50,366 nt of DNA from a virus (IMGVR_UViG_3300045988_165035:1-50366); one strand, 5' to 3'; numbered from the stretch's first letter, positions 30,237-42,769 are shown. The notes: generated from the letters alone by a model not told the origin. A program made the numbers and translations.

Positions 30237-31271
30237 CTACTTTTCTTCGATGTACACCATCGCGTTCGGGTAGCGAACTTCCGTACCGCTGCACTTGAAT
30301 TCCATCGGCGTGATGATCTTCAAGCCCTGAGCCTGCGGTGCGAGGAATCGCGGCGCAATCGGCATATAGGCGCTCATGTTGAGCGGGTTGCGGTCATAAA
30401 TCACCATGCGGCTCTTGCCGGTGGTGCTTACCTTGTTGGCCTTCAGTTCGGAACCGCTCAACTGAGCAAGCGGACGAACATCCACCGTGCCGCCGCCCGC
30501 CGTCAGCCCCTTAACCACGTTGTGTTCCTTGAAGTAGTCAAGCAACGTAGTTTCGTTGTACTGACTCAAGCGGGTCTTGGCGAGTTTGGTGTAGCGGGCG
30601 CTGTCAATGAGGAGCGTGTTCGGAACATAGGTCTGCATCGAATCGATCCAAACCTTTTCGAGTCCCTTGTTAAGGTCTTCAATGATGTCATCCGCCGTCG
30701 TTTCCGCCGCATTCCAATCCAGCTGAGACTTTTCGGTGCGCACGTTCGGATTGTTGAAAAGCCCGTACATTCCTCGGGACTTATCGCCGTAAAGGACGAC
30801 GTGCTGCATCATTTCGTCCGCCGCACGGGCGCAAAGCTGCGCCTGCTGCGCGTTCAAATCCTGACCCACCATAGAGCAGGCGCGGAGTTCGTTCAGCGTG
30901 TATTCCATCGCCACGCCGGCATAGCCGAGCGGAACGGAATGGAGCTGGCGAAGAATGCCCACGGACGGCAAGTCGTTACTTCCGCTGCCGATCCAGTCAG
31001 CCTTTGCCATACCGTCAAAGCTGAAGTAATTCACCGTGAGGGCGGCTTCATTGACCGTCGTGTCAATCGGCACCAACTCCTTGTAGACGATCTTGGCGTA
31101 CGGAACTTCGTAAGCCTTCGCCTCCAACGACGCCAACTGCGAAAGCATGAAGGCGATGCCCGAATCAGCGTCGCGCATACGCAAATCAAACTTGCGCACC
31201 CCCGCGACAAGACCGAAGCGTTCAGCCATCGCGTCGGTAATCGTTAAAGAATCTTTGAAATTAAACTTCAT
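30237..31271 (-). CDS. Major capsid protein (DUF2184 / HK97-fold family)
   Basis: 344 aa, following the DUF2213 and cement-protein genes. Contains LEAKAYEVPYAKIVYKELVPID...YFSFDGMAKADWIG. Confidence 0.8.
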   Translation of the reverse strand: MKFNFKDSLTITDAMAERFGLVAGVRKFDLRMRDADSGIAFMLSQLASLEAKAYEVPYAKIVYKELVPIDTTVNEAALTVNYFSFDGMAKADWIGSGSNDLPSVGILRQLHSVPLGYAGVAMEYTLNELRACSMVGQDLNAQQAQLCARAADEMMQHVVLYGDKSRGMYGLFNNPNVRTEKSQLDWNAAETTADDIIEDLNKGLEKVWIDSMQTYVPNTLLIDSARYTKLAKTRLSQYNETTLLDYFKEHNVVKGLTAGGGTVDVRPLAQLSGSELKANKVSTTGKSRMVIYDRNPLNMSAYMPIAPRFLAPQAQGLKIITPMEFKCSGTEVRYPNAMVYIEEK

Positions 31272-31274
31272 TTA

Positions 31275-31757
31275 TCAACCCCCAATCTTGAGAGAAATCA
31301 CCGACAGGCCGTCCTTAGCGGCGTCCTTGCGCCACACAGCGCCGTCAACCTTCACAGCTGCCGTTGTTTCGCTTCCCGCAGACTTAACAAACTTGCCGAG
31401 AACATCGGTACCATTACCGACATAGACAGGATCCCCAGCTTGAACTTCTTCACCCGCAACGACATAGATTTCGCCCAACGTAAGGACAGTGCCCGTGCGA
31501 GTCGGCGGCAGGCCGAATTCAGCGCCGGGCGCCGTGTCGAACGAGTAGTCACGGATGAGAATCCCGAGAATTTCGGTATCGGATGCGCCGAACGGCTTGC
31601 AGCCGCGGGCGCCGTCGCGGACAACAGGCGTGCCGTAAGGAATGACGGCGTCGGTCTTGTTCTGCGCCGTAATGCGATTGGAAATCGCCAACGGCGACGC
31701 AATCTGCCCGGCGTACCCTTCCTCGTGATAGAGGCGTACGTTCTGAGTAATAGCCAT
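31275..31757 (-). CDS. Capsid cement/decoration-like protein (DUF2190-like)
   Basis: 160 aa, between the scaffold/protease and the major capsid gene. Confidence 0.55.
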   Translation of the reverse strand: MAITQNVRLYHEEGYAGQIASPLAISNRITAQNKTDAVIPYGTPVVRDGARGCKPFGASDTEILGILIRDYSFDTAPGAEFGLPPTRTGTVLTLGEIYVVAGEEVQAGDPVYVGNGTDVLGKFVKSAGSETTAAVKVDGAVWRKDAAKDGLSVISLKIGG

Positions 31758-31771
31758 TTAAAGCTCCTTGA

Positions 31772-32938
31772 TTACTTTTTGAGATTGAGACCCGTCTTCC
31801 ACGCGTCCCCGATCTTTTTGCGGTTCTCTTCGGCGGCGTCTTCGTCCTTGTCCTTGTCTTCGTCCTTGTCGGCGTCATTGACTTTGTTCGCAACGGCGTC
31901 GGCCACCTTCGTCTTGGAAGACTTGGCTGCGCTCTTGTCTGCGTCAGCCACCATGCAGTCGAAATAGGCCTTTACGTAGTCTTCGGACTTGTCAGCAAGA
32001 TCGATCGTTGCGCCGGACGCCTTAATGGCTTCGCGCATGATTTCGTCGGAAAGAAGCGAATCACAGACGAACTTTTCGCCGCCGATCGTCTTCGCCTTTT
32101 CGCGAAGTTCCATCGCGTCTTTAAACAACTGATGGATCTGGGCGTCAGACGGAATCTTTTCCTTCGTATCTTTCAACTGCTTCTGCAAATCGGCGATCTT
32201 CGCGTCCTTTTCCGCCGAAGCCTTGTCGAGCACCGCCACCTTGCTTTCTGCGTCTTTCACCTTTGCGGTCATTGAGGCGATTTCGTTTTTGACCGCATTT
32301 GCCAATGCCTCATCGTTGAGAGCGATCGTGACCGCCCCAATGTTCACGTCCATGAGTTTTCCTCCGTTTGGATCGTTGTCAGCAATTCGAGCACCGCCTG
32401 CGCGGCCCCGTCCCACAATCGCCACGTGGTTGAGCTTGATGCTCTTCACAATGGCGTCGTATTTCGTTCCGTCCGGTGCTACGCCGGGTTTGAAATCCAA
32501 GTCGGCGTCATAGCCGGCAGAGATTTCGACCTTGCCCGCTTCCACGGCTTTGATCGTCGCGGCATCCTTGATAAGCAGGTCACACATGACGTACTCGGGC
32601 GCCGATGGATCCCGTGTTCCCTTGCTGATGACCGTTCCCTTCGAAAGGCGCGAGAAGTTCTCGGCGCCCACGTTTTCTTTTGGGTGATCGTTGGTAATGT
32701 CAGCGTTGAGGTAGTCAGCCAAAGCACTGTCGGCAAACACCACCTCCGGCGGGCGGTAAATATTGAAAAGCTTGAAAGCCTTGTCACCTTTCAGCCCCAG
32801 CTCCAGTCCGTAGTAGCGTTGGATGCCGCTACGGGCGACGCGGGCGTGACATTTGAGGTAGCCCTTGTCGTCGTAGGTGCGGGTGGAGTGAACGGCATAG
32901 GAGCCGCGGTCAAGCATTCCGCAATCAAATAAATTCAT
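31772..32938 (-). CDS. Prohead protease/scaffolding protein (DUF2213-like)
   Basis: YDDKGYLKCHARVARSGIQRYYG...NIYRPPEVVF...ITNDHP...ISAGYDADL...KLNHVAIVGRGRAG matches DUF2213. Helical acidic C-tail (DKDEDKDKDED). Confidence 0.75.
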   Translation of the reverse strand: MNLFDCGMLDRGSYAVHSTRTYDDKGYLKCHARVARSGIQRYYGLELGLKGDKAFKLFNIYRPPEVVFADSALADYLNADITNDHPKENVGAENFSRLSKGTVISKGTRDPSAPEYVMCDLLIKDAATIKAVEAGKVEISAGYDADLDFKPGVAPDGTKYDAIVKSIKLNHVAIVGRGRAGGARIADNDPNGGKLMDVNIGAVTIALNDEALANAVKNEIASMTAKVKDAESKVAVLDKASAEKDAKIADLQKQLKDTKEKIPSDAQIHQLFKDAMELREKAKTIGGEKFVCDSLLSDEIMREAIKASGATIDLADKSEDYVKAYFDCMVADADKSAAKSSKTKVADAVANKVNDADKDEDKDKDEDAAEENRKKIGDAWKTGLNLKK

Positions 32939-34758
32939 GAAAGACCCTTCTTTCTTTGATATTCCTCAACCTCAGACGAAATAACAGGTATTGCGACGCA
33001 TCGACAGTTGCTTACGGCTATATGATTAGCAACGAAAAGTCCGTTTTCTATCGTGAGGTCGTAAACAAAATGTCCTTTACTTACCCCAAAGCGCTTTACC
33101 TTCAGGCGCTTGAATTGATGCGTCAGGGGCAAACACTCACCGCCGCGAGTAAGGCGGTCGGCATCTACCCCGACAACGTGAGCAAACGTCTCCGCGGATG
33201 GGGCTATGAGATTCCCCGCGCCAAAATCAAGGCGCACAATCGACAAGACTTTCCGCTTGAAGAAATCAAAGCGTTGCTGGATCGAAAGTTCAGCGTTAAA
33301 GCCATCGCCAAACACTTCCAAACATCGCGCAACGTCATTACTCGGATACTTAACGAGGCCGGCATACAGCAACCCAACCGTAGCGAGGCCATGTTCATCC
33401 GAATGAGCAAAACAACGCGCCAAGAACGCGAGGAATTGACCCGCGCGGCGCACGATGCCGTCCGGGGCAAGAGTCAGCCCTTGGAGAACCGTGAACACAT
33501 TGCCGACAGTCGTTACATGAGACGAACGGCTTATTTCTTCGGCTACGGTGAGAAGGAGCTCCAGCGCGTCCTTGCGGAACGCGGCATCGCTACCTTGAGT
33601 CAGTTCCCAGTCGATATTTACAACATCGATCTTTTCTCCCGCCCGAATATCGCCATCGAACTCTCTTCCCACACTGCGGCACGTTTCAAAACGCCCGAAC
33701 AAGTGAAGCGAATCAAAAAGCTCGCTGAACTTCAGATCAAAACACTTGCCATCAGCCTTCAGTCCGTTGATGCCTTGCTGGGGAACATTGACGAGATAGT
33801 CGCCCTCCTTGAGCAAATACGCCGGGACAAAGCCCCTGTCCGTAAGTACTGGGTGGTTAGGTGTACACAGGAGCGTTTCGCCCGAATCCGTGATGAGTTC
33901 GGTCGTTTCGCCTGTGTACCAATAGCGCCACGCTTTGCGTGCTCCATAAAAGAAATTAACCTTGACTGACCCCGGGAAACACCGAATCGGCATCCCCGGC
34001 GCCACCTTCTCCCCGTCCACCACGGGGAGATCATCCCAGCGGTAAACCCCACGTCCGTAGGGCGTCATGGCGTTACCCGCGTGAACGTGGGACGGGCGGA
34101 CGCGTTCGTCGTTTGACGTGCTCCAGCGGAAGTACTTGAACCCCGCGGCCTCCTGTCGCGCACGGTTGACCGCGCTTTGCACTTTGGCCGTTTGATCTCG
34201 GGCAATGAGCGCCGCCCGGCTTCGCGTCACGCCGTAGGACTGAATTGCGTCGATGATCTGTTTCGACCGAACGCCCTGCATCATGTTTTGAAAAACGATG
34301 TCCGCCACCGCGTTCAAGTGTTGGGACGCTATGGACTTGATGAGCTGCACGTTTTGCTGCGTTGCCATCTGCAACACGCGCCGCAATGTCTCGTCCTGAT
34401 AGATATTGAGGGCAAAGTTTCGGTCGTTGAAAAGCGCAATCTGCCGTACAAAGGCCGAGGCATACTGCGCCGCCAACGTGTCAAATACGGGAGAGTTCCA
34501 CGCCATCCGAATTCGGGCGAGCAATTCATTGACGTCCACCTGCGCCGCATCCATGACGCCTTTGGGCGCCGGAAGATTCGGCACCACCTGCTCTATGACG
34601 TCACTGCTTATCCTTTTCAGGATCCCCAGCAGGTTTTTCAGGTACGCCACCTCCGGCGCTTTCGGCGCCCGCTTCGCCAGTCGTTTCTGTACCGTCTTCA
34701 GCGGGATTTTCGTAGAGTTGCTCCAGGGGGAGCTGCTTTTCGATGTTTTCAAGTTCAT
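32935..34758 (-). CDS. MuF / SPP1 gp7-type head morphogenesis protein interrupted by an intein
   Basis: Extein motifs RVRPSHVHAGN and PGMPIR|..|CRCVAIPV. A 325-aa Hint insertion lies between. The start is uncertain because ATG 34758 overlaps the portal gene by 158 nt. Confidence 0.8.
   Translation of the reverse strand: MNLKTSKSSSPWSNSTKIPLKTVQKRLAKRAPKAPEVAYLKNLLGILKRISSDVIEQVVPNLPAPKGVMDAAQVDVNELLARIRMAWNSPVFDTLAAQYASAFVRQIALFNDRNFALNIYQDETLRRVLQMATQQNVQLIKSIASQHLNAVADIVFQNMMQGVRSKQIIDAIQSYGVTRSRAALIARDQTAKVQSAVNRARQEAAGFKYFRWSTSNDERVRPSHVHAGNAMTPYGRGVYRWDDLPVVDGEKVAPGMPIRCFPGSVKVNFFYGARKAWRYWYTGETTELITDSGETLLCTPNHPVLTDRGFVPAYLLKEGDYLVNVPQQGINGLKADGKCFDLKFSELFDSLHLFGRFETCRSVGREFDGDIRAGEKIDVVNIDWELTQGSDAAFRKDALELLLTVAEEISRSSHVTTVGNVFTVLQGLTLAPDGIVRRAGQFLAFLARCFAHSDEHGLATVGLLYAGLVKYPSNDVARCLEVFGDGFNAELSIQQRFDFFKRKVLSIVRLDFGAGNLIAPSAETFAHVVGVDADRLTRGGECLPLTHQFKRLKVKRFGVSKGHFVYDLTIENGLFVANHIAVSNCRCVAIPVISSEVEEYQRKKGLS
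33007..33981 (-). mobile_element. Intein (aa 260-584 of the MuF-like protein)
   Basis: Block A CFPGSVKV. Block B LLCTPNHPVLT. Also GFVPAYLLKEGDYL. Blocks F/G HFVYDLTIENGLFVANHIAVSN followed by +1 Cys. Removing the insertion restores ..PIR-CRC.. Confidence 0.8.
33070..33969 (+). CDS. Homing-endonuclease-like protein (two HTH motifs plus a Vsr/DUF559-like PD-(D/E)xK nuclease), antisense and nested inside the intein
   Basis: HTH motifs TLTAASKAVGIYPDNVSKRL and SVKAIAKHFQTSRNVITRIL. Nuclease core GEKELQRVLAERGIATLSQFPVDIYNIDLFSRPNIAIELSS. GAGG lies 11 nt before ATG 33070. The stop is 10 nt from the intein boundary. Confidence 0.55.
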   Translation: MSFTYPKALYLQALELMRQGQTLTAASKAVGIYPDNVSKRLRGWGYEIPRAKIKAHNRQDFPLEEIKALLDRKFSVKAIAKHFQTSRNVITRILNEAGIQQPNRSEAMFIRMSKTTRQEREELTRAAHDAVRGKSQPLENREHIADSRYMRRTAYFFGYGEKELQRVLAERGIATLSQFPVDIYNIDLFSRPNIAIELSSHTAARFKTPEQVKRIKKLAELQIKTLAISLQSVDALLGNIDEIVALLEQIRRDKAPVRKYWVVRCTQERFARIRDEFGRFACVPIAPRFACSIKEINLD

Positions 34759-36025
34759 CTATCCGCTCCTCGTCGAACGTGTACTTTTCCGCCGCCTGCA
34801 AATTGCGCTGCACCTGCGAGACCGTGATAACACCGGCGTCGAGATACGCCATGTCGGCGTCCGCCTGCGTTTTGTTAGCCGTTGCTAAATCCATTGGACT
34901 CGGCGTAGAAAGTGGTTTCCATTCGTAGTTGAAGTCGTCGGGGAATCCCCCCGTCGCCGAACGAACAAGCACCTCGTCCAACTTGCGAAGAGCGGGATCG
35001 AGGACGTCGTTCTGCAGAGAGCGGAGGTAGTCGTTGTAGTTTCGAAGGTCGCTGTCGCCGGTTGCGTTAAGGCCGCCGGGCGACATTCCGAAGAGTTTCG
35101 TCATCGGCGTATGGCACGCGCCGGCGATCATCTGCATCTGCTTTTCGAGCAGGGTATCGATGCCCGTGTAAGTGACGTTTTTGCGCTCGAAATCTTCCGA
35201 GTCATCTAAAAGCGCCAAATGGACGACGGACTTCATCAGCCGAAACGTCTCGAACCGTTTCTGAATTGCCTGATCTTGGTCGGTGGAAAAGTCCGAGGCC
35301 AGCCCCTGCCGCTTAATAACGTCGACATTGAATTCCTGCAACGATTCGCCGACGCCGCCAATAGCCGACAAGAGGTCTTCAATCGGCTCCAGTGCCACGC
35401 GAAGGGTCGAGTCGCCCCACCCCTGGTTCATGTAACGAAGACGCGGCGGCAACGTTTCTCCGGTAAAGCGCACGATGTGCGAAGGATGCACCCGCGTGTT
35501 CTTCGCGTTGCCGATCAGGTACTCAGTCGGCATCATGAAGTCGGGCGACTCCACGTCCAAAACCTGAATACCGATGCCGCTTAACCAATAGCGGTCGAGC
35601 ACCAAGAGATTTTTCAGGCTTCCTTTGCCCAGCCGCTCAAGATTCAGCGGGCGCGACAAATCCTGATCGGTAATCATGACAATCGCGGCGCCCCCGTAAA
35701 GACGCGCCCAGCGATAGCAGTCGCGGACGGCATTTACAAGGCCGACGCGGTCTTCTTCGATTCGGATTTTGTCGGCGTCATCGCACTTGATTTCACGCCA
35801 TTCGCGGGTAATGTCCGCCGGGATAGTGTTGATGATGTTCTTCGCGAGCCACGATGACTGATACGCGGCCTCGTACTCCAGCCAATTGGTTACAAGGCCG
35901 TCGAACCGCCAATGCCCGTGACTGCGCTTACTCTGCATCGTCCCAAGGCCGGTGGCAAAGTTGACAAGGCCGTCCGCGACACGGGCGCCGAGGCGCGTGT
36001 CTCTCGTTTTTGTCTTCTTTTTCAT
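34601..36025 (-). CDS. Portal protein (DUF1073-type)
   Basis: 474 aa, directly after terL. Contains WLEYEAAYQSSWLAKNIINTIPADITREW. Confidence 0.8.
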   Translation of the reverse strand: MKKKTKTRDTRLGARVADGLVNFATGLGTMQSKRSHGHWRFDGLVTNWLEYEAAYQSSWLAKNIINTIPADITREWREIKCDDADKIRIEEDRVGLVNAVRDCYRWARLYGGAAIVMITDQDLSRPLNLERLGKGSLKNLLVLDRYWLSGIGIQVLDVESPDFMMPTEYLIGNAKNTRVHPSHIVRFTGETLPPRLRYMNQGWGDSTLRVALEPIEDLLSAIGGVGESLQEFNVDVIKRQGLASDFSTDQDQAIQKRFETFRLMKSVVHLALLDDSEDFERKNVTYTGIDTLLEKQMQMIAGACHTPMTKLFGMSPGGLNATGDSDLRNYNDYLRSLQNDVLDPALRKLDEVLVRSATGGFPDDFNYEWKPLSTPSPMDLATANKTQADADMAYLDAGVITVSQVQRNLQAAEKYTFDEERIDELENIEKQLPLEQLYENPAEDGTETTGEAGAESAGGGVPEKPAGDPEKDKQ

Positions 36026-36028
36026 TTG

Positions 36029-37468
36029 CTACAACATTTCAGAGTAAGGGATGACCTTCGGGTCAAGCATTTGACTGATGGCGTCACACATCGGGTCGAT
36101 CTGGTCGTCATGCAGGTGTGTGTCGTCTTTTGTAAACGCCTCGCATTCCGCAATGAAATCGTTCACAAACGGTGCCCCATCCGGCAGGTAGACGTAACCC
36201 GCCTGAATGAAGCCCTGCACGTCCATAACGCGTTCAAGCTTCGACCGCGATCGTTCAATCGGCTGCACCGGAATCCGTGGACGTCCGGCGCCCCCGCGCG
36301 TAATGCGCTGAATGAGTTCCGTCCCCGACGACTTGTCTTCAACAAAAAGCCGACGCAACGGGCTTCGTCGGTCGGCTTTCTGTTTTGCCCAAAAATCGGG
36401 GATCCTTCGTTCGAGTTCCCAGGCCTCGAATTTGTCGCGGAACATATCGAGGAGGTAAAGGTTGTTGTCCTCTCCAAGCCCCCAGCATTCCGCTACCTGG
36501 TAGTCGTTCGACTCTTTCTCCTTTTGCGCGGTATCAACGAACACGGCACGCCACTTCATCTTCGGCGCCACCGTGTAGCGTTTAAACCACGCACCCTTCA
36601 GAATGCCGCCGCCCAACGGCGTAGGCCGTTGCTGGTATTGCCCTGCGAAGACGTAGGAATTCTTGGAGGCCATCGCCTTCAAGCGTTCCAACGTGTGCTT
36701 TTCCGGCCACAGGGCGCGTTCGTGATCCGTCCCTTCGTCGAGAATCGCCGGAAGAATCAGCTGCTCGAAGTGGTACTCCTCGTCCTTGAGCAGCATCCCG
36801 CAGAAGTCTTCCTCGTGGATTCGCTGCATGATGACGATGCAAGGCGTTCGCGGGGAATTGAAACGGGACTTGATAACCGCGTCCCATCGGCGGTTAATGT
36901 TTTCGCGAAGTGTCTCGGAATGCGCGTCTGTAGGCTTCAGCGGATCATCAATGAGTATGCAACCGCAAAAGCCGCGCCCGTCTTCGAAATCGTCAACCTT
37001 ACCGGCGCCGTACCCCGTCACCTGTCCGCCTGCGGCACGGGCAAGAAAAACGCCGCTCTCCGTGGTTTTCCACGCGTTGGCGGCGTCTTTGCAAAGTCCG
37101 ATAGGCCACAGTTGTTGGAATTCCTGTGACTTAATGAGGTCGCGGATGGCATTCGAGTTATCCAGCGCCAACGCTTCTGAGTAGGACAAGTGGATGAATT
37201 CACACGATGGGTTTTTCATGAAGCACCACGCCGTGAACATTTTCACCACCAGCTCCGTCTTGGAGTATCGCGGCGGCATATTGATGATTAGGTGCGTCGT
37301 CTCCCCGTTGAAAACCCTCATCAGGGCTTTGGTGATTTCGTGGTGATGCCACGAAAAGCGGAATTTCGCCCCATGCTGCAGGGAGAAGAAATACCGGACA
37401 AAAAACTCAAAATCCTCCTCACAGCGCTGTTTGATTCGGCACAGCAGCTGTTTGTCGGTTATCTTCAT
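36029..37468 (-). CDS. terL: Terminase large subunit
   Basis: 479 aa. Walker A-like MPPRYSKTE, Walker B ILIDDP, and a C-terminal nuclease region with conserved acidic residues (FVDTAQKE...HDD). Confidence 0.85.
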   Translation of the reverse strand: MKITDKQLLCRIKQRCEEDFEFFVRYFFSLQHGAKFRFSWHHHEITKALMRVFNGETTHLIINMPPRYSKTELVVKMFTAWCFMKNPSCEFIHLSYSEALALDNSNAIRDLIKSQEFQQLWPIGLCKDAANAWKTTESGVFLARAAGGQVTGYGAGKVDDFEDGRGFCGCILIDDPLKPTDAHSETLRENINRRWDAVIKSRFNSPRTPCIVIMQRIHEEDFCGMLLKDEEYHFEQLILPAILDEGTDHERALWPEKHTLERLKAMASKNSYVFAGQYQQRPTPLGGGILKGAWFKRYTVAPKMKWRAVFVDTAQKEKESNDYQVAECWGLGEDNNLYLLDMFRDKFEAWELERRIPDFWAKQKADRRSPLRRLFVEDKSSGTELIQRITRGGAGRPRIPVQPIERSRSKLERVMDVQGFIQAGYVYLPDGAPFVNDFIAECEAFTKDDTHLHDDQIDPMCDAISQMLDPKVIPYSEML

Positions 37469-37484
37469 GCGTTCCGTCAGGGCA

Positions 37485-37512
37485 CAAAAAAAGGCGCCCC
37501 GAAGGACGCCTT
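37485..37512 (-). terminator. Intrinsic terminator just upstream of terL
   Basis: The minus strand reads AAGGCGTCC-TTCG-GGGCGCCTT followed by TTTTTT. The stem has G.U on the minus strand but C.A on the plus strand. Confidence 0.65.
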
Positions 37513-37530
37513 GTTGCTAATTTTGCAACT

Positions 37531-37761
37531 TTAATCGACGATCAATTCTCCATTTTCGTCGAAAAGTTTCTTTACTCGCTCAAATTCGGCCTCACTGATC
37601 TGGCCTTGCTTCATAACGCTACTTTCCGCAATATCAGAAAGCGTCACGCTCTCACCCAACATCCGAGAAATAAAGCCGAACGTATACCGCTGACCGTTGG
37701 TTAAATCAACGTACCAGCCACGATCTATATCGCTCGGAAGTTTTTTCTTGGGTTGCGCCAT
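37531..37761 (-). CDS. Hypothetical protein (76 aa) downstream of the ADP-ribosyltransferase
   Basis: TAATG overlap with the upstream gene. No motif. Confidence 0.6.
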   Translation of the reverse strand: MAQPKKKLPSDIDRGWYVDLTNGQRYTFGFISRMLGESVTLSDIAESSVMKQGQISEAEFERVKKLFDENGELIVD

Positions 37762-38849
37762 TACTGTTTCTCCATTTCGACAAAATACACGTCGTCGCGC
37801 TCATCATACCCTACTAAGCGCCCCTTTGTCCCGGGGGCGAAAAGGAATTCATTCTCCTGTGGGCTGATTGAGTGATTTTTCATCGCAATGGCGTGAGTTC
37901 CTGCTTTAACACGGAAAGCAATCGTACACCGATTGCCTCCGCCAAATGTTCGGGCTGTGAATAAATTCGTCGAAGTCGAAACAAAACCTTTTTCTAAAAA
38001 TTTCCCATCCTTTGACAGGATATTCTTTAACGCTTTTTTGCTTACACCACGATAAACGGTGCAATCCTTTTTTATTTCATTTGCCTGAATAGCCGCCTTG
38101 GCGTCTTCAATATACGACTCAAAAACGGCCTTGCCACCGATATTTTGATAATCTTTGCGGTACTCACGCGGCACCTTTCCGTCCCGAAGGATCCCGTTAA
38201 TGATTGCGCACTGACTGGACACCGAATATTCCTCCAGCGCTGCGTGCTGAGATTCCGTCGCCTTGCTTCCGCACCCCGTTTTCGCCAATCGGATCGATGC
38301 GCGTTCGTGTTCGGTCAAATCTTCATAAACGGCGTCGTAGCTCTTCTTTGCAGCCTTGAAAGCTTTCTGCGCCTCCGGCGACGTATCAATCTTAAATTCG
38401 CTATGTCCGCCGGCGGCTTTTGAAGTCGTTTTTGCCGATAATGCCGCAGATTTCTGCGCGGGCTTTTTCCACTCTGAAAACTTGGATGAAAACGGCGATT
38501 TCTTTTGCGGCGATACGTATTTCTCGGTTTTGGTCTTCGAGGTCAACGCTTTGGCGATTTTGTATGACGTTTCGGCCTTCGACTCGGCGCCCGCGCTTTT
38601 ACTCTTAGTTGCAGCCTTCGCCAATGTGGTTTTCTTCTCGCTCTTTGCTTCTTTGGCGGGCGCCGAGGCCTTCTCTTTGCCCTTCTTACCCAGTTCCGCG
38701 AGTTTCTTCCCGTTGAACTTTCCGCCCATCCCGGCTTTGATCTCGCCGGTCGCCCCGTCGATCTTGACGTGTTGGCCGGCGTTCTCATCTCCGTTCGGAT
38801 GCACCGTAATCCACCGATCCACGCCGTCGATAAGCACGCGTTTAAGCAT
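37761..38849 (-). CDS. ADP-ribosyltransferase (C3/VIP2-type R-S-E) with Lys/Ala/Ser-rich linker
   Basis: The C-terminal domain has CTVYRGV (Arg), GFVSTSTN (S-T-S) and QENEFLF (E-x-E). N-terminus RWITVHPNG...[14 protein letters not shown] 38849 overlaps the terS stop. Confidence 0.7.
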
Positions 38850-39235
38850 CAAAATTCCTCGTCGAGTACTTTGTCAACAATGGCTTTCTGGCGTTCCGTC
38901 AACTCTTCGGATGCCTCAACCTGAATCGGCGCTCCATCGGCGCCCGTCATTTCCTGGCGGCTCGTTTCCTTCCAGCCGCATCGCGACTTGAGGTAGAAAA
39001 TCGTTGCGGCAATGTTTCCGGCCTTGATATGCTCCATCAGCTTCCCGCCGACGAACACATTGGCCTTAGCCTTCCCTCTTTTTATAGCCTCGCCAAATTG
39101 GACAAATTGAGCCTTCCGGCGAACTAGCGTTCGGTAGGAAATCCCCAAGGCCTGCGCGATCTCTTCTTCGTTGTCGCAGACCTGCGCGTATTGCTCGACC
39201 TTGGCAAGATCGATATCAATTTTCTTGCCGGCCAT
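38849..39235 (-). CDS. terS: Terminase small subunit
   Basis: [22 protein letters not shown], then [18 protein letters not shown], typical of small terminases. Confidence 0.7.
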
Positions 39236-39356
39236 AGTGTTTTCTCTCAAAAATATTTGCCGAAGAGTGCGGGGCAGTTCCGCGTTTCGCCGAGTTATTG
39301 ATACGCCTCAAAGGGTTAAAAACTCCGCGGTCGCTGGGTCACCTCTTCGACAAAAT

Positions 39357-40064
39357 TCAGTGCTGCAGAGAATTGAAAGTCGCCCCTGTTTCTTCGAGGG
39401 TCGCTTCTTTCCCTGTCATTTCCTGCCAACGCTTGACGATCACATCCACGTACCGCGGATCCAATTCCATCAAACGAGCAACTCGTCCAGTCTCTTCCGA
39501 TGCGATCAGAGTCGTTCCGGAACCGCCAAAGCTATCGAAAATCACGTCTCCTTTCTTGGAGCTGTTTTCAATGAGATACCGGAAAAGCTCCACTGGTTTC
39601 ATTGTCGGATGGACACCGTTTCGCGTCGGCTTATCGAATTCGAGCACCGTCGACTGAGATCGGTCTGAATACCACTTATGCGCCGCCCCTTCTTTCCAAC
39701 CATACAGGCAAGGCTCGTGGCGCCACTGGTAGTCCTGACGCCCCATCACAAACATATTTTTCGCCCAAATGAGGCACTCGCGAATAGGCCAGCCAACGTC
39801 TCGACAAGCGCCGCGGAAATTGAATCCTTCGCTGTCTGCGTGCCAAATGTAGAAGACCGCCCCCGGCTGCATAACCGTGTCTGCCATAGAAAACGCATCA
39901 ACGAGGAACTGACGGAACTGCCCGTCTTCCATGTTGTCGTTTTGAATGGTGAGTGCATCTTTGGTGCCGCCCTCGTAGGCGACGTTATACGGCGGGTCGG
40001 TCAGGTACAGCGAGACAGTCGGAGTACCCCCCCCCCGTGCTCCCGAATAACTTTGAAATATCAT
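39357..40064 (-). CDS. N6-adenine/N4-cytosine DNA methyltransferase domain (3' fragment of a frame-broken ParB-MTase gene)
   Basis: DPPY motif (LYLTDPPYNVAY), SAM-binding FDSFGGSGTT and HPTMKPVEL. Confidence 0.8.
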   Translation of the reverse strand: MIFQSYSGARGGGTPTVSLYLTDPPYNVAYEGGTKDALTIQNDNMEDGQFRQFLVDAFSMADTVMQPGAVFYIWHADSEGFNFRGACRDVGWPIRECLIWAKNMFVMGRQDYQWRHEPCLYGWKEGAAHKWYSDRSQSTVLEFDKPTRNGVHPTMKPVELFRYLIENSSKKGDVIFDSFGGSGTTLIASEETGRVARLMELDPRYVDVIVKRWQEMTGKEATLEETGATFNSLQH

Positions 40065-40599
40065 CAGCCGAGCAAGAATCCCCGCACATCACCCGATGGG
40101 CGCCAAGGATCCACACATCGCCGCGTTTAGACACCGGGTCTTCCTGCGGCTCCGGTGCTTCATCCTCGTCACCGTCGGCGGATTCCGTCGGGGTTGCAAG
40201 CAATTCGTCAAGCTCCTCATCCGAAAATCCCGTCAGTTCGAGATCAACCCCCGCATCCTTCAAGTCACCCAATTCAAGGGCCAACATTTCGTTATCCCAC
40301 CCGGCGTCAAGCGCAAGGCGGTTATCCGCGAGAATGTAGGCTCGTTTCTGTGTTTCGGTGAGATTTTTCAGCTCAATACACGGGACTTCGGTAAGCCCGA
40401 GTTTTCGCGCCGCCAACGTCCGCCCATGCCCGGCAACGATACCGTTTTCGCCATCGATGATGATCGGGTTTGTCCAGCCGAATTCTTTGATCGAGGCGGC
40501 AATCCGTGCCACCTGTTCGTCGGAATGCGTGCGGGCGTTTCGAGCGTACGGGATAAGGTCTTCGACCTTGCGGTACGTGACTTCGAGCTGGTCAGTCAT
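39985..40599 (-). CDS. ParB-like nuclease domain (5' fragment of the frame-broken ParB-MTase gene)
   Basis: Contains LIPYARNARTHSDEQVARIAASIKEFGWTNPIIID...VAGHGRTLAA and RVMCGDS. ATG 40599 has GGAG 9 nt upstream. Confidence 0.8.
   Translation of the reverse strand: MTDQLEVTYRKVEDLIPYARNARTHSDEQVARIAASIKEFGWTNPIIIDGENGIVAGHGRTLAARKLGLTEVPCIELKNLTETQKRAYILADNRLALDAGWDNEMLALELGDLKDAGVDLELTGFSDEELDELLATPTESADGDEDEAPEPQEDPVSKRGDVWILGAHRVMCGDSCSADDISKLFGSTGGGYSDCLAVPDRPAV
40027..40036 (-). repeat. Homopolymeric G10 tract (C10 on the plus strand) at the ParB-MTase frame break
   Basis: Counted directly. G9 would fuse the frames to give ..KLFGSTGGGTPTVSLYLTDPPY.. Confidence 0.9.
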
Positions 40600-40615
40600 G
40601 GCGAAAACTCCGAAG

Positions 40616-40644
40616 AATAAAAAACCCGGCTTGCAAGGCCGGGT
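40616..40644 (-). terminator. Intrinsic terminator upstream of the ParB-MTase gene
   Basis: Stem acccggc/gccgggt (7 bp). TTTTTATT follows on the minus strand. Confidence 0.65.
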
Positions 40645-40685
40645 CAAAAACACAGCACGTAAGGTGCGGTGCTAAGGTAGACAAG

Positions 40686-40709
40686 AAAAAAGCGCCCACC
40701 GTGGAGCGC
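40686..40709 (-). terminator. Intrinsic terminator after the secreted-protein moron
   Basis: The minus strand reads GCGCTC-CACGGT-GGGCGC followed by TTTTTT (G.U pair only on the minus strand). Confidence 0.6.
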
Positions 40710-40721
40710 ACTAAGAAACCT

Positions 40722-41504
40722 TTACTCGTTAATTTTTAGGTCTTTGAACCTTTTGGAAATCTCAACAGACTCCTGCGCTGATTCCACTGCGCGTATCTTT
40801 GCATCAGTCCAAAAATCCTTATAGCAGGGTACCGACTTTGATTTCAGGCACTGCGCCTTTTCCTCTTGCGTCATAAAAGACGCCTTTTGTACGGCGCCCC
40901 TGACATACATCCGCGTCTGAAACGCCTCGAATCGGCGCCCGGCGTTCACTGATTCGACCGCATAGGTGTAAGCCTCTTGCCGAACCTTCTTCAAGTTTAG
41001 AAAACGGCAATCTTTGGTAATTGCCGACTGCTTATATCGGTACAAGCCGCGACAATTCAAAACCACGGGGATGTTTTCGGGCAACGCCTGCAGCGCTTTC
41101 AAGTTTTCACCCTTGCGGATGACACCAAAAACAAACCCGATGTTTTGCCCCTGAAAGTCACCGTCCAAATAAAACTGGTGGAACCCAGGATCGTAAAAAA
41201 CCGTCTGGTCAACTCCCTGAGACGTTCCCAGCACCAAAATCCGACTATTTCCGAGCCGTTCCTTTTGTTTGTAGAAATCGGTTTGAACCCAATAAGAAAG
41301 GCCTCCAGCCGTCGTTTGTTCCATGCCTTTCTTGTCAGCATAGAACCACTGAAACGGCTGCACGCCTTGGCCTACCGTTTCCGGCGTGAGTTCCGAACCA
41401 ACCACGACGTCACGCAGTAATCGCTCCTCCACCGCATCTAATTTTGCGGCGTGAACCCCAGCGGCTACCAACGCAAGCAATGCGGCAATAATCGTCCGTT
41501 TCAT
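40722..41504 (-). CDS. Secreted/periplasmic protein of unknown function (260 aa), moron
   Basis: Sec signal peptide MKRTIIAALLALVAAGVHA|AK. Bracketed by terminators on both sides. AT-richer than its neighbours. Confidence 0.75.
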   Translation of the reverse strand: MKRTIIAALLALVAAGVHAAKLDAVEERLLRDVVVGSELTPETVGQGVQPFQWFYADKKGMEQTTAGGLSYWVQTDFYKQKERLGNSRILVLGTSQGVDQTVFYDPGFHQFYLDGDFQGQNIGFVFGVIRKGENLKALQALPENIPVVLNCRGLYRYKQSAITKDCRFLNLKKVRQEAYTYAVESVNAGRRFEAFQTRMYVRGAVQKASFMTQEEKAQCLKSKSVPCYKDFWTDAKIRAVESAQESVEISKRFKDLKINE

Positions 41505-41571
41505 GCTTCCTCTCCAAGCGATTACGATGAGGAAAGCGTATCACCAATTTAGAATTTTTGAAACTCGAACG

Positions 41572-41604
41572 AAAAAAGCCCCAGCGAGGAGAGGTCACTG
41601 GAGC
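41572..41604 (-). terminator. Intrinsic terminator downstream of the Q-like gene
   Basis: The minus strand reads GCTCCAG...CTGGGGC followed by TTTTTT (G.U pair only on the minus strand). Confidence 0.55.
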
Positions 41605-41706
41605 TCGTTGTGTATTTCGTCCGAGCATGACGAGGGAGCCAATCGGCTCCCCTGCTAACTCGGCTGATCACACAGCTTCAAATTTGATACCCGCTTTTTA
41701 TCAGTT

Positions 41707-42138
41707 TTATTCAATTTTGTCAAGGGGTTCTGGATCATTTCTCATGCGTTCCGCAATGTTTCGAATTGAGCAAAGCGCCGCTCTCATTCGGCGCCCGACT
41801 TCACGCATAGGAATCTTTAAAAACCGCGCTAAGTAGTACGGGTCGTTAAACTTCCCGAAATACCAACACAGGAGAATGTTTTTGTTCTGCAACACAAAGC
41901 CCCGGCTTCGCCACGCCCTGTCAATCAACCAGGCGTCGCGTATCTGTGCCTGTGTAAGCGGCGGCAACGGTTCCGGGTCTTCGGGATTTTTTTCAGGAAC
42001 GTGGCCGCCAAATTGAATCATGGCACGGTAGAGCGGGGTTTCCGTCGTTCTCGGACGGTCTTTCGTCACCCGAGCCCAAATCTTGCAGCGTTCGTCAATG
42101 TCTGCCAATTCACGAGGGATGATTTCACAGTTTCTCAT
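41707..42138 (-). CDS. Late-gene antiterminator Q-like protein
   Basis: Lambdoid position after rusA. ERCKIWARV...LTQAQIRDAWLIDRAW...LLCWYF...LARFLKIPMREVGRRMRAAL resembles QuuD-type Q proteins. Confidence 0.45.
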   Translation of the reverse strand: MRNCEIIPRELADIDERCKIWARVTKDRPRTTETPLYRAMIQFGGHVPEKNPEDPEPLPPLTQAQIRDAWLIDRAWRSRGFVLQNKNILLCWYFGKFNDPYYLARFLKIPMREVGRRMRAALCSIRNIAERMRNDPEPLDKIE

Positions 42139-42581: not shown

Positions 42582-42769
42582 CGTTTCAACTCCCGAGCCT
42601 TGCGATTCTTTTCCATGACACCGTCGTACATCCCGCGGTCGAACGCCGCTTTTTCGTCCTTCGACATACGGTTGATACTGGCGTCGAATTGAGACGAACT
42701 GAAGCCTCTGATGGCGCAGTCATAGCCCTGCCGATAGGCGATCTGTACCTTCGTTTCTTTGTCGGTCAT
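42578..42769 (-). CDS. Hypothetical protein (63 aa)
   Basis: ATGA-coupled ORF. No motif. Confidence 0.55.
   Translation of the reverse strand: MTDKETKVQIAYRQGYDCAIRGFSSSQFDASINRMSKDEKAAFDRGMYDGVMEKNRKARELKR

What the first reader, a model, noticed from the sequence alone, without database searches (positions are those of the whole stretch)
33070..33969. Homing-endonuclease-like gene on the opposite strand, nested wholly inside the intein: a dual-coding intein/HEG unit
The region that would normally be the intein's endonuclease domain (aa ~326-560 of the minus-strand protein) has no LAGLIDADG, HNH or other nuclease motif. It reads like an antisense translation.

The plus strand over the same DNA carries a 299-codon ORF (ATG 33070, GAGG 11 nt upstream, stop 33969) with clear domain-like content:
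- two helix-turn-helix units (QTLTAASKAVGIYPDNVSKRLRGWG; FSVKAIAKHFQTSRNVITRILNEAGI)
- a NUMOD-like segment (VRGKSQPLENREHIADSR)
- a Vsr/DUF559-type PD-(D/E)xK core (GEKELQRVLAERGIATLSQFPVDIYNIDLFSRPNIAIELSSH...KRIKKLAELQIKTLAI)

The ORF lies entirely within the intein boundaries (33007-33981) and ends 10 nt from the intein's first codon. The two frames are codon-aligned antisense: position 2 faces position 2. Both can stay open only if each avoids TTA, CTA and TCA codons, which this genome uses elsewhere.

Interpretation: this is a mini-intein whose homing endonuclease is a free-standing-type enzyme encoded in reverse orientation. The sense frame would be kept open only as a linker so that splicing can still occur. 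I am not aware of a described intein with an antisense-encoded HEG.

Caveat: long codon-aligned shadow ORFs are common in this genome (see the rejected items). Openness of both frames alone is therefore weak evidence. The argument rests on the motif content of the plus-strand ORF and on its exact nesting.
Basis: partly seen in the sequence, partly recalled or inferred. Interest (0 to 1): 0.9.

Follow-up and report, generated by a model that had tools for sequence, protein, structure and literature searches.

The report
Antisense homing endonuclease inside MuF intein
A phage head-assembly gene is interrupted by a self-splicing intein whose homing endonuclease is a separate, real gene on the opposite DNA strand; the architecture is genuine and under selection in both frames, but it was already described in a 2025 preprint.

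Summary
The minus-strand gene 32935-34758 is a MuF-type head-morphogenesis gene. It carries a 325-codon class-1 intein (33007-33981) inserted before its conserved CRC motif. The plus-strand ORF 33070-33969 (299 aa) lies codon-aligned antisense inside the intein.

The plus ORF encodes two HTH domains plus a Vsr-like nuclease of the I-Bth0305I (EDxHD) homing-endonuclease family (family profile vs PDB 3r3p, E=3.4e-6).

- The two splicing-domain (HINT) ends evolve as minus-frame coding sequence.
- In the central ~165 codons, changes among 93-96% identical relatives are 33 synonymous / 14 non-synonymous in the plus frame, against 5/42 in the minus frame.

Across 56 distinct homologous inteins, stops in the minus frame are absent (0 observed, 231 expected). 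The plus frame is kept open only from its ATG to intein codons 2-9. That ATG is the reverse complement of a conserved block-F His codon.

A near-identical intein-less allele and a sharp divergent tract (about -60 to +79 nt) around the insertion site point to recent transfer by homing.

The kind is not new. Gosselin et al. (bioRxiv 10.1101/2025.01.02.630785) list "VSR -1 ORF" inteins in actinophage MuF genes, and these are homologues at the same site. This is a new member, from an uncultured phage or prophage of unidentified host.

The parts
32935..34758 (-). MuF-like (SPP1 gp7 / Mu F) head-morphogenesis gene, longest ORF 607 aa. The likely real start is GTG at 34650 (571 aa), overlapping the portal gene by 50 nt.
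   Evidence: Pfam Phage_Mu_F at aa 150-260, E=5.9e-14. PHROG 15127 'head protein' over the full length, E=7e-148. Gene calls in relatives give 571 aa.
33007..33981 (-). Class-1 intein, 325 codons: Cys1 (33979-33981), block B TPNH, block F GHFVYDL, C-terminal Asn325, followed by the +1 Cys of the extein CRC motif.
   Evidence: Sequence read directly. Pfam Intein_splicing scores 30.2 bits, below its gathering score of 35.8. Foldseek of the AlphaFold model hits PI-PfuI (E=1.3e-5) and the Mtu RecA mini-intein (rmsd 2.7-3.9 over about 98 columns). The insertion site is the same in 83 homologous loci.
33682..33981 (-). N-terminal splicing (HINT) half, intein aa 1 to about 100. It is dual-coded with the C-terminal third of the endonuclease.
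   Evidence: pLDDT 75-87. Minus-frame wobble signature over aa 1-60, mixed over aa 61-105. Minus-frame identity exceeds plus-frame identity in 55/55 comparisons.
33139..33681 (-). Central intein segment (aa about 101-281): a translated spacer with no amino-acid constraint, kept open only.
   Evidence: Among close relatives, 5 synonymous / 42 non-synonymous changes in the minus frame. pLDDT about 40-60. 0 TTA/CTA/TCA in the plus frame against 231 expected over the family.
33007..33138 (-). C-terminal splicing half (blocks F and G), intein aa about 282-325. It carries, in antisense, the endonuclease gene's Shine-Dalgarno sequence, ATG and first ~23 codons.
   Evidence: pLDDT 68-85. Minus-frame wobble signature over aa 301-325.
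33070..33969 (+). Homing-endonuclease gene, 299 codons plus TGA, codon-aligned antisense to the intein.
   Evidence: In the central region 33 synonymous / 14 non-synonymous changes in the plus frame. Intact, with identical upstream 18 nt, in 5 close relatives.
33055..33058 (+). Shine-Dalgarno-like GAGG, the reverse complement of the block-F Asp-Leu codons (GAC CTC). Spacing to the ATG is 11 nt here, against 8 nt in most family members.
   Evidence: An SD-like sequence is present in 41/49 homologues. The Leu codon is CTC or CTT in 41/48, against 21 expected (P=6e-9).
33070..33072 (+). Start codon ATG, the reverse complement of the conserved block-F His codon CAT.
   Evidence: ATG in 46 and GTG in 3 of 49 homologues at this aligned position. 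At the block-F motif, scorable in 48 inteins, the His codon is CAT in 45, against 22 expected (P=1.5e-12).
33100..33201 (+). HTH domain 1 (aa 11-44). Absent in the shorter (~265-283 aa) inteins of the family.
   Evidence: Pfam HTH_28, E=1.3e-4. Size classes.
33256..33357 (+). HTH domain 2 (aa 63-96).
   Evidence: Pfam HTH_23 at 24.6 bits (equal to its gathering score) and HTH_7. 8 of 11 family members hit HTH_7.
33445..33471 (+). Conserved AAHDAVRGK motif (aa 126-134).
   Evidence: Invariant or near-invariant columns A126, A127, H128, A130, R132, G133. No NUMOD Pfam hit.
33538..33825 (+). Vsr-like / EDxHD-family nuclease domain (aa 157-252), with invariant E161, D187 and E197.
   Evidence: Profile hit to 3r3p (I-Bth0305I catalytic domain), E=3.4e-6, and to 3hrl. 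Foldseek 3r3p_B, TM-score on the target 0.56. pLDDT 85-95.
33844..33960 (+). C-terminal predicted beta-hairpin of the endonuclease (aa 259-297), encoded antisense to intein blocks A-B.
   Evidence: pLDDT about 90. The plus frame is kept open here: 6 stop-equivalent codons against 54 expected over intein aa 10-60. The sequence itself follows minus-frame constraint.
33967..33969 (+). Stop codon TGA, the reverse complement of the TCA codon for Ser5 of block A (CFPGS).
   Evidence: The plus stop faces intein aa 2-9 in 48/56 inteins. TTA/CTA/TCA are 5.5-fold enriched over aa 1-9.
32928..34041 (.). The intein plus a divergent flanking tract, read as a co-conversion tract: about 60 nt of N-extein and about 79 nt of C-extein side are only 70-72% identical to an otherwise 95-100% identical intein-less relative.
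   Evidence: window vs L093/L094. Intein-less allele P0076 reads ...PGMPIR|CRCVAVP....

Best explanation
This is a composite mobile element in a phage MuF (head-morphogenesis) gene.

**How it works**
- The minus strand encodes one contiguous precursor: N-extein, then the N-terminal splicing (HINT) half, then a ~180-aa spacer, then the C-terminal HINT half, then the C-extein.
- The two HINT halves fold together. They splice out the whole 325-aa intein and join ...PIR to CRC..., giving mature MuF.
- The spacer has no function of its own except to stay free of stop codons.
- The plus strand of the same DNA encodes a separate 299-aa protein built from tandem HTH domains, a conserved AAHDAVRGK linker, a Vsr-like nuclease of the I-Bth0305I/EDxHD family, and a C-terminal hairpin.
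- This protein has its own ribosome-binding site and ATG. Both are written in the reverse complement of conserved block-F codons. Its stop codon is the reverse complement of the block-A Ser codon.
- Inferred step: the protein cuts intein-less MuF alleles near the PIR|CRC junction. Double-strand-break repair then copies the intein together with the endonuclease gene and about 60-80 bp of flanking sequence into the recipient.

**Shown**
- Both frames are open and each is under its own selection.
- The domain identities.
- A single origin and the same geometry across phages of GC 39-72%.
- Presence/absence polymorphism and a divergent flanking tract.

**Inferred**
- Plus-strand transcription.
- Nuclease activity and the cleavage site.
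- Splicing competence.
For: **Domains**
- HTH domains plus the 3r3p/DUF559/MTES_1575 nuclease.
- HINT fold at the ends, low confidence in the middle.

**Which frame is selected**
- amino-acid identity to the window is higher in the minus frame over N-HINT (55/55). It is higher in the plus frame over the centre (55/55).
- the wobble position switches strand at intein aa ~60-120 and again at ~285-300.
-, close relatives, variable sites at minus codon positions 1/2/3:
  - N-extein 4/3/40, with 43 synonymous and 4 non-synonymous changes in the minus frame.
  - Central intein 34/10/5, with 5/42 in the minus frame and 33/14 in the plus frame.

**Both frames kept open**
- in 83 of 84 loci found through the plus protein alone, the minus frame is open across the hit and always in the same register.
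- 0 against 231 expected stop-equivalent codons in the minus frame.
-, plus-frame stop-equivalents:
  - 0.11x of expectation over intein aa 10-60.
  - 0 against 41.6 expected over aa 61-100.
  - 1.7x upstream of the ATG, 1.3x in the N-extein, and 5.5x over aa 1-9.

**Translation signals**
- ATG/GTG at the aligned position in 49/49. The His codon is CAT in 45/48 and the Leu codon CTC or CTT in 41/48.

**Mobility**
- only the intein part is DNA-similar to Edwardsiella phage MSW-3 and to Klebsiella phages.
- an intein-less allele at 94% extein identity, and a sharply bounded 70%-identity tract around the site.
- the ORF and its upstream signals are intact in all five close relatives.
Against: - **No transcription signals found.** The consensus scan found no sigma-70-like promoter upstream and no terminator downstream on the plus strand. 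All neighbouring genes are on the minus strand, so plus-strand transcription is unexplained.
- **Motif incomplete.** By my reading of the alignment, the His of the EDxHD/Vsr motif (GGxWH in many relatives) is not evident in the window's clade (AIELSSHTAARF; relatives read VELTRTWQSRF). Catalytic competence is therefore not assured.
- **Weak splicing-domain scores.** The penultimate intein residue is Ser, not His. Pfam Intein_splicing scores below its gathering threshold.
- **Suboptimal spacing.** The SD-to-ATG spacing in the window is 11 nt.
- **No experimental data.** There are no expression, splicing or cleavage data.
Confidence: 0.8

Rival explanations
1. The plus-strand protein is real and under selection, but it no longer acts as a homing nuclease. 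It could be a DNA-binding regulator or an inactive relic retained for another role. In that case the intein is now inherited vertically in this lineage.
For: By my reading of the alignment, the His of the EDxHD motif is not evident in the window's clade. There are two strong HTH domains. The preprint notes that several VSR-like intein groups show vertical-looking inheritance.
Against: The acidic catalytic residues E161, D187 and E197 are invariant. An intein-less allele at 94% extein identity and a sharply bounded divergent tract around the site indicate recent transfer. The intein DNA is more conserved between unrelated phages than the exteins are.
Confidence: 0.13
2. The plus ORF is a non-coding 'shadow' of the intein frame. 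The real endonuclease is an unrecognised in-frame domain in the middle of the intein.
For: Long codon-aligned antisense ORFs are common in this genome. For the window alone, openness of the minus frame has P about 0.23.
Against: Central-region substitutions are 5 synonymous / 42 non-synonymous in the minus frame but 33/14 in the plus frame. Plus-frame identity exceeds minus-frame identity in 55/55 comparisons. The plus translation hits HTH families and 3r3p. The minus centre has no family hit and low pLDDT. A free-standing homologue exists whose antisense frame has 11 stops.
Confidence: 0.02
3. This is a 'fractured gene' or split intein: MuF is made as two polypeptides joined in trans, with the endonuclease gene lying between them.
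For: The same endonuclease family occupies fractured genes in marine phage metagenomes (Dassa 2009, PMC2677866). One gene caller split the MuF of a close relative into pieces.
Against: The minus frame has no stop in the window or in 83 of 84 loci, with strong selection against stops. No internal start or stop signals are needed. The endonuclease gene is antisense, unlike in fractured genes.
Confidence: 0.02
4. The intein does not splice. MuF works with the insertion retained, or is a pseudogene.
For: Pfam Intein_splicing is below threshold. The penultimate His is replaced by Ser.
Against: Cys1, TPNH, the terminal Asn and the +1 Cys are invariant across the family. The C-extein evolves under minus-frame purifying selection, with 5 synonymous and 1 non-synonymous change. 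The HINT fold is recovered. Many cultured, viable phages carry the same intein.
Confidence: 0.03

Closest known systems
Anti-sense VSR-like HEN inteins ('VSR -1 ORF') in MuF-like minor capsid proteins of actinobacteriophages (Gosselin, Arsenault & Gogarten, bioRxiv 10.1101/2025.01.02.630785)
   Same: - Same host gene (MuF) and the same insertion site (before CRC).
- Same contiguous intein, and the same -1 antisense frame.
- Same endonuclease family, with a 3R3P hit.
- Their listed phages Vivi2, Fosterous, Affeca, Angelicage and Malisha are direct tblastn hits of the window's plus protein, at 27-35% identity.
   Different: - The window is not an actinophage, and its host is not identified. The plus protein's closest cultured-phage matches are Edwardsiella, Klebsiella, Aggregatibacter, Vibrio, Pseudomonas and Salmonella phages.
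[quoted passage not shown] Here the ORF overlaps the HINT-coding sequence at both ends.
- The text and supplements I searched for 'start codon', 'stop codon' and 'both frames' gave no analysis of the selection in both frames or of the embedded start, SD and stop.
I-Bth0305I / EDxHD (Vsr-like) homing endonucleases (Taylor et al. 2011, PMC3239194; Dassa et al. 2009, PMC2677866)
   Same: - N-terminal DNA-binding modules followed by a C-terminal Vsr-like nuclease.
- Found in phages and associated with self-splicing elements.
- Profile hit to the solved catalytic domain 3r3p.
   Different: - I-Bth0305I sits in a group I intron of recA. Other members sit between split-intein halves in the same orientation, or are free-standing.
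- Here the gene is antisense inside an unbroken intein.
- The DNA-binding part is made of HTH domains rather than recognised NUMODs.
- The motif His is not evident in this clade.
Antisense LAGLIDADG HEGs in inteins (Synechocystis DnaX, Chloroflexus SpoVR-like; Gorbalenya 1998 and Gogarten 2002, as cited in the preprint)
   Same: A homing endonuclease is encoded on the strand opposite to a contiguous, presumably splicing intein.
   Different: The nuclease family and the host genes differ. I did not read the original papers and rely on the preprint's description.
Fractured genes with split inteins (Dassa et al. 2009)
   Same: The same endonuclease family is inserted at the endonuclease-insertion point of an intein in phage genes. 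The proposed origin is also the same: a free-standing HEG invading a mini-intein.
   Different: There the host gene is broken into two ORFs and the HEG is in the same orientation. Here the host ORF is unbroken and the HEG is antisense.
ShiLan insertion element with a hidden out-of-frame HNH endonuclease in a phage methylase (PMC11855218)
   Same: An insertion stays open in the host gene's frame while the endonuclease is read in a different frame. It shows active homing.
   Different: The nuclease (HNH) is on the same strand but out of frame. The element is not a recognised intein. I know it only from the abstract.

Membership tests
Class-1 intein (HINT splicing domain) | N-terminal Cys/Ser nucleophile, and a +1 Cys/Ser/Thr on the C-extein | tested here: met
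   Cys1 (MuF C260) and the +1 Cys (C585) are invariant in 45 aligned homologues.
Class-1 intein (HINT splicing domain) | Block B TxxH motif | tested here: met
   TPNH is present. T299, N301, H302 and P303 are invariant.
Class-1 intein (HINT splicing domain) | C-terminal Asn, usually preceded by His | tested here: inconclusive
   Asn584 is invariant. The penultimate residue is Ser in the window (VSN), while many relatives have HN.
Class-1 intein (HINT splicing domain) | HINT fold | tested here: met
   AlphaFold pLDDT is 75-87 over intein aa 1-~100 and 68-85 over aa 282-325. Foldseek hits PI-PfuI (E=1.3e-5), the TliVMA intein (E=4.3e-4) and the Mtu RecA mini-intein (rmsd 2.7-3.9). Pfam Intein_splicing scores only 30.2 bits against a cut-off of 35.8.
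Class-1 intein (HINT splicing domain) | Protein splicing activity | not testable with these tools
   Indirect support only: the C-extein is under minus-frame purifying selection, and the same intein is present in many viable cultured phages.
EDxHD / I-Bth0305I (Vsr-like) homing endonuclease | Vsr-like nuclease core detectable by sequence or structure | tested here: met
   Profile vs 3r3p gives E=3.4e-6 and vs 3hrl E=2.5e-4. Family members hit MTES_1575 and DUF559. Foldseek 3r3p_B has probability 0.97 and target TM-score 0.56.
EDxHD / I-Bth0305I (Vsr-like) homing endonuclease | Complete E-D-x-H-D catalytic signature | tested here: inconclusive
   E161, D187 and E197 are invariant, and D187 aligns with the catalytic position of 3r3p. 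By my reading of the alignment, the His (GGxWH in distant members) is missing in the window's clade, and the last acidic residue is only tentatively D233.
EDxHD / I-Bth0305I (Vsr-like) homing endonuclease | N-terminal DNA-binding region followed by a C-terminal nuclease | tested here: met
   HTH domains at aa 11-44 and 63-96, nuclease at aa 157-252.
EDxHD / I-Bth0305I (Vsr-like) homing endonuclease | Site-specific cleavage of the element-free allele | not testable with these tools
   Indirect support only: an intein-less allele exists and there is a divergent tract around the site.
Antisense VSR-like HEN intein of MuF (Gosselin et al. 2025) | Contiguous intein in a MuF-like minor capsid gene, with a VSR-like ORF in the -1 antisense frame | tested here: met
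   Geometry. The window is homologous to their listed Gordonia phage inteins at the same site. Their supplementary table lists Vivi2 gene 14 and others as 'VSR -1 ORF'.
Fractured gene / split intein (Dassa et al. 2009) | Host gene broken into two ORFs, with a same-strand free-standing HEG between the split-intein halves | tested here: not met
   There is a single uninterrupted minus ORF, and the HEG is on the opposite strand.

The most novel reading that the evidence does not exclude
The overlap is not a passive nesting in a linker. It is an ancient, hard-wired two-strand gene.
- About 118 of the endonuclease's 299 codons are read in antisense over functional HINT codons.
- That stretch includes the last third of the nuclease fold and a confidently predicted C-terminal hairpin.
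- The ATG, Shine-Dalgarno sequence and stop are fixed by codon choice at conserved intein residues: His to CAT, Leu to CTC, Ser to TCA.

[quoted passage not shown] Intein and endonuclease have then co-evolved as one inseparable unit across phages of GC 39-72%, including Proteobacteria and Actinobacteria phages. Free-standing copies, such as those in Acinetobacter Obolenskvirus phages and in contig L099, would be escapees from decayed inteins.

This would be one of the most extensive conserved antisense dual-coding arrangements known in phages.
Probability: 0.5. Interest if true: 0.65.

Novelty: new member of a known kind. Interest (0 to 1): 0.45.

Why it matters
- **A test case for antisense dual coding.** Two unrelated proteins are read from opposite strands of the same codons. 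Selection is visible on each frame, down to the choice of synonymous codons that create the other gene's start, ribosome-binding site and stop.
- **The architecture is widespread.** It was reported for a few dozen actinophages. Here it turns up in at least 357 IMG/VR stretches and 112 GenBank phage records (the 90 rows listed all lie under MuF/head genes), including Salmonella Jersey-like, Pseudomonas, Klebsiella, Vibrio and Aggregatibacter phages.
- **The endonuclease gene is missed by annotation.** It is unannotated in every embedded record whose feature table I inspected (MSW-3, Aaphi23, Vivi2, BR313c), and no listed hit row shows a separate endonuclease CDS under the match.
- **It bears on how inteins acquire endonucleases.** A free-standing HEG invaded a mini-intein.
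- **It flags a gene-calling blind spot.**
- **It offers an untested new enzyme scaffold:** HTH domains plus a Vsr-like nuclease aimed at a conserved capsid-assembly gene.

Tried and rejected
- **Promoter and terminator scan** of 32400-34400 found no plus-strand sigma-70-like promoter or terminator. A -35-like TCGACA and a -10-like TATGAT lie across the splice junction, but they are only 14 nt apart and are not conserved in relatives. I rejected them by eye.
- **Foldseek of the whole endonuclease model** gave only weak global matches: SurE artefacts on top, with 3r3p third. The sequence-profile hit carries the assignment.
- **Is the C-terminal hairpin conserved in free-standing homologues?**
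  - Pairwise BLASTP of the tails gave E=0.009 over 17 aa.
  - A profile of 56 embedded tails scored the free-standing tails no better than shuffles.
  - The claim is dropped.
- **HINT remnant opposite the free-standing Acinetobacter endonuclease:** none found.
- **NUMOD assignment:** no Pfam support.
- **Source of the window:** megablast against the phage collection and against E. coli genomes found nothing. Relatives occur only in ENA and Logan metagenome contigs.
- **Literature:** searches for 'MupF intein', intein + antisense, and intein + opposite strand found nothing relevant. The actinophage preprint then surfaced.


Full report
**1. What is in the sequence**

The minus strand carries a 607-codon ORF, 32935-34758.
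- It is a MuF / SPP1 gp7-type head-morphogenesis protein: Pfam Phage_Mu_F at aa 150-260 (E=5.9e-14) and PHROG 15127 'head protein' over its full length (E=7e-148).
- Gene calls in relatives begin at codon 37 (GTG at 34650, giving 571 aa), overlapping the portal gene by 50 nt.
- The neighbourhood is terminase, portal, MuF, a Pa193_gp24-like gene, then a cement/minor capsid gene, all on the minus strand.

The protein reads ...PGMPIR|CFPGSVKV...LLCTPNHPVLT...GHFVYDLTIENGLFVANHIAVSN|CRCVAIP... This is a 325-codon class-1 intein at 33007-33981, placed before the conserved CRC motif.

The plus strand has an ORF open from 32956 to 33969.
- The ATG at 33070 gives 299 codons.
- GAGG lies at 33055-33058.
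- The TGA at 33967-33969 ends 9-10 nt before the Cys1 codon.
- The frames are codon-aligned antisense: plus position 1 faces minus position 3.

**2. What the plus ORF encodes**

- Pfam finds two HTH domains. HTH_28 covers aa 11-44. HTH_23 and HTH_7 cover aa 63-96, with HTH_23 exactly at its gathering score.
- A database search found nine called homologues.
- A profile of the family hits the solved catalytic domain of the homing endonuclease I-Bth0305I (3r3p, E=3.4e-6, query aa 157-248). It also hits a DUF559-like endonuclease (3hrl, E=2.5e-4).
- Family members hit Pfam MTES_1575 (4 of 11) and DUF559 (2 of 11).
- E161, Q178, Y184, N185, D187 and E197 are invariant.
- AlphaFold gives a confident model (mean pLDDT 82.5):
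  - helical DNA-binding modules;
  - an alpha/beta nuclease core at aa 161-252, with pLDDT 85-95;
  - a long C-terminal beta-hairpin at aa 259-297, with pLDDT about 90.
- Foldseek recovers 3r3p only weakly in a whole-chain search (target TM-score 0.56).
- The 'NUMOD-like' label has no Pfam support. The segment is nevertheless the conserved AAHDAVRGK motif.
- By my reading of the alignment, the His of the EDxHD signature seen in distant members (GGxWH) is not evident in the window's clade.

**3. What the minus frame encodes**

- Only the ends look like protein. AlphaFold of the precursor gives these pLDDT values:

| Intein region | pLDDT |
|---|---|
| aa 1 to ~100 | 75-87 |
| aa ~102-281 | 39-67 |
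| aa 282-325 | 68-85 |

- Foldseek of that model returns inteins: PI-PfuI (E=1.3e-5), TliVMA, and the Mtu RecA mini-intein at rmsd 2.7-3.9 over about 98 columns.
- No nuclease family matches the centre.

**4. Related loci**

- tblastn with the plus protein found 112 GenBank phage records. All 90 rows listed across lie under a MuF / head-morphogenesis / minor-capsid or hypothetical CDS. In the four embedded records whose feature tables I inspected (MSW-3, Aaphi23, Vivi2, BR313c), the match is antisense to the MuF CDS.
- The carriers include Edwardsiella MSW-3 (50% identity), Klebsiella, Aggregatibacter Aaphi23, Vibrio, Pseudomonas, 59 Salmonella records and Gordonia phages.
- A scan of IMG/VR confirmed 357 stretches, of which 80 loci were kept.
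- In 83 of 84 loci the minus frame is open across the whole hit. It is always in the same register, inside a 470-1160-aa ORF.
- Every locus has the same insertion site, |CFPG...[HS]N|C[RK]C.
- There are two size classes. Inteins of ~320 aa have two HTH domains. Inteins of ~265-283 aa lack HTH1.

**5. Which frame is selected, and where**

*Identity to the window.*
- Over intein aa 1-66 the minus frame is more conserved in 55/55 comparisons.
- Over aa 67-289 the plus frame is more conserved in 55/55.

*Third-position signature across all pairs.*
- Minus-frame wobble over aa 1-60 and 301-325.
- Plus-frame wobble over aa 121-285.
- Mixed over aa 61-105.

*Close relatives at 93-96% nt identity.*

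| Region | Variable sites at minus pos. 1/2/3 | Minus frame S/N | Plus frame S/N |
|---|---|---|---|
| N-extein | 4/3/40 | 43/4 | 5/42 |
| Central intein (aa 121-285) | 34/10/5 | 5/42 | 33/14 |
| C-extein | 1/0/5 | 5/1 | 0/6 |

It shows that the plus ORF is a functioning gene in this very lineage, and that the sense centre is a spacer.

**6. Both frames are kept open**

*Minus frame.* Stops there would be plus-frame TTA, CTA or TCA codons. In the central region of 56 distinct inteins these number 0, against 231 expected from local codon usage (summed log10 P = -115). The power comes from the family.

*Plus frame.* Stop-equivalent codons in the minus frame behave as follows.

| Region | Observed | Expected |
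|---|---|---|
| Intein aa 1-9 | 49 | 9.0 |
| Intein aa 10-60 | 6 | 54.3 |
| Intein aa 61-100 | 0 | 41.6 |
| Last 19 intein codons (upstream of the plus ATG) | 34 | 19.6 |
| Last 60 N-extein codons | 60 | 44.7 |

The plus stop faces intein aa 2-9 in 48/56 inteins, most often the Ser of CFPGxS.

**7. Translation signals are written in intein codons**

- The plus start aligns in 49 homologues: ATG in 46 and GTG in 3. It is the reverse complement of the block-F His codon.
- At the block-F motif, scorable in 48 inteins, the His codon is CAT in 45, against 22 expected (P=1.5e-12).
- Upstream, TTGGAGGTT is the reverse complement of the Asn-Leu-Gln codons.
- The Leu codon is CTC or CTT in 41/48, against 21 expected (P=6e-9).
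- An SD-like sequence is present in 41/49 homologues.
- The window and L005 have one extra codon (HFVYDL), so the SD spacing is 11 nt rather than 8.
- The ORF and its upstream 18 nt are intact in five close relatives.

The endonuclease gene therefore overlaps real HINT-coding DNA by about 95 codons at its 3' end and about 23 at its 5' end.

**8. Mobility**

- Against GenBank phages, only the intein part of the gene is DNA-similar (query positions 799-1592, 66% identity).
- Searching with the spliced extein found intein-less alleles in the same neighbourhood. P0076 (246 aa, 94% identical) reads ...PGMPIR|CRCVAVP....
- The window and that relative are 95-100% identical over 1.4 kb upstream and about 300 nt downstream.
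- They are only 70-72% identical from about -60 to +79 nt around the insertion site.
- I read this as a co-conversion tract, the signature of acquisition by double-strand-break repair from a divergent donor.

**9. Free-standing relatives**

- In Acinetobacter Obolenskvirus phages the homologue is an annotated CDS. It is convergent with an intein-less MuF (...LPM|CKCRAKL...) and overlaps its stop. Its antisense frame has 11 stops and shows no HINT similarity.
- In contig L099 the homologue lies between a complete MuF 3' end and a duplicated C-extein copy. A degenerate block F/G remnant sits opposite its start. This looks like a decayed intein.
- The C-terminal tails of these free-standing proteins are not detectably homologous to the embedded tails.

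**10. Comparison with what is known**

- The endonuclease family and its association with inteins were described as 'fractured genes': split inteins with a same-strand HEG (PMC2677866). I-Bth0305I itself was characterised in PMC3239194.
- The exact architecture is reported by Gosselin, Arsenault and Gogarten (bioRxiv 10.1101/2025.01.02.630785, version of 2025-10-20).
  - It describes a contiguous intein with a VSR-like endonuclease on the antisense strand, in MuF-like minor capsid genes.
  - It reports an HHpred hit to 3R3P and an unstructured in-frame middle.
  - It credits antisense LAGLIDADG cases to Gorbalenya 1998 and Gogarten 2002.
- Their supplementary table lists Vivi2 gene 14, Angelicage 15, Affeca 15, Fosterous 12 and Malisha 5 as 'VSR -1 ORF'. 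These are direct hits of the window's protein.
- What this analysis adds:
  - the spread far beyond actinophages;
  - quantitative evidence of selection on each frame;
  - overlap with the splicing domain itself;
  - the embedded start, SD and stop;
  - the divergent flanking tract.

**11. Verdict**

The claim of novelty is not.
- I classify this as a new member of a known, recently described kind.
- Plus-strand transcription, splicing and cleavage remain untested. No promoter was found by a consensus scan.

Noticed in passing
L099:1-1439 (Logan SRR29826526 contig): An endonuclease homologue (P0009, 438-1124, plus strand) lies between an apparently complete intein-less MuF 3' end (...HFGCKCIVYPEGSTPAQIAQIAKAGD*) and a second, duplicated C-extein copy (...HCKCMVYPEGATPEQIRQ...*). 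The antisense frame is still open. It keeps a degenerate block F/G opposite the ATG but has no N-HINT motifs. This looks like an intein decayed into a free-standing antisense HEG.
   Followed up: partly
L085:2953-4616 and L004:455-2055 (Acinetobacter phages BUCT629 and IME285): A free-standing homologue of the endonuclease is convergent with an intein-less 258-aa MuF gene that still has the CKC target motif, and overlaps its stop codon by 7 nt. The antisense frame has 11 stops. About 670 nt downstream of it on the minus strand are unannotated.
   Followed up: partly
window 34601-34758: The longest MuF ORF (ATG at 34758) probably over-extends. Gene calls in relatives start at the codon equivalent to GTG at 34650, which overlaps the 3' end of the portal gene (34601-36025) by 50 nt.
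   Followed up: partly
window 33001-34000: AT skew is +0.115 in this 1-kb bin, while it is negative in the six neighbouring bins (31001-37000). This fits a plus-strand coding island inside a minus-strand late operon.
   Followed up: no
window 31440-31967, 32426-32932, 34177-34827 (plus strand): Several long plus-strand ORFs (168-216 aa) lie opposite the neighbouring minus-strand structural genes. Their translations look low-complexity and they were not examined. They illustrate why openness alone is weak evidence in this genome (TTA+CTA make up 2.8% of Leu codons, and TCA 5.5% of Ser codons).
   Followed up: no
whole window: There is no megablast match to 50,697 GenBank phage records (tested with 34700-44700) or to complete E. 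coli genomes (tested with 34000-39000). Close relatives (90-96%) occur only in ENA and Logan metagenome contigs, some longer than 100 kb. This suggests an uncultured phage or prophage lineage.
   Followed up: partly
L087:1936-3559 (ENA contig, 92% relative): The source's gene caller annotated the plus-strand endonuclease ORF and truncated MuF to a 206-aa fragment. Elsewhere callers keep MuF and drop the endonuclease. Automatic annotation cannot represent both genes.
   Followed up: no
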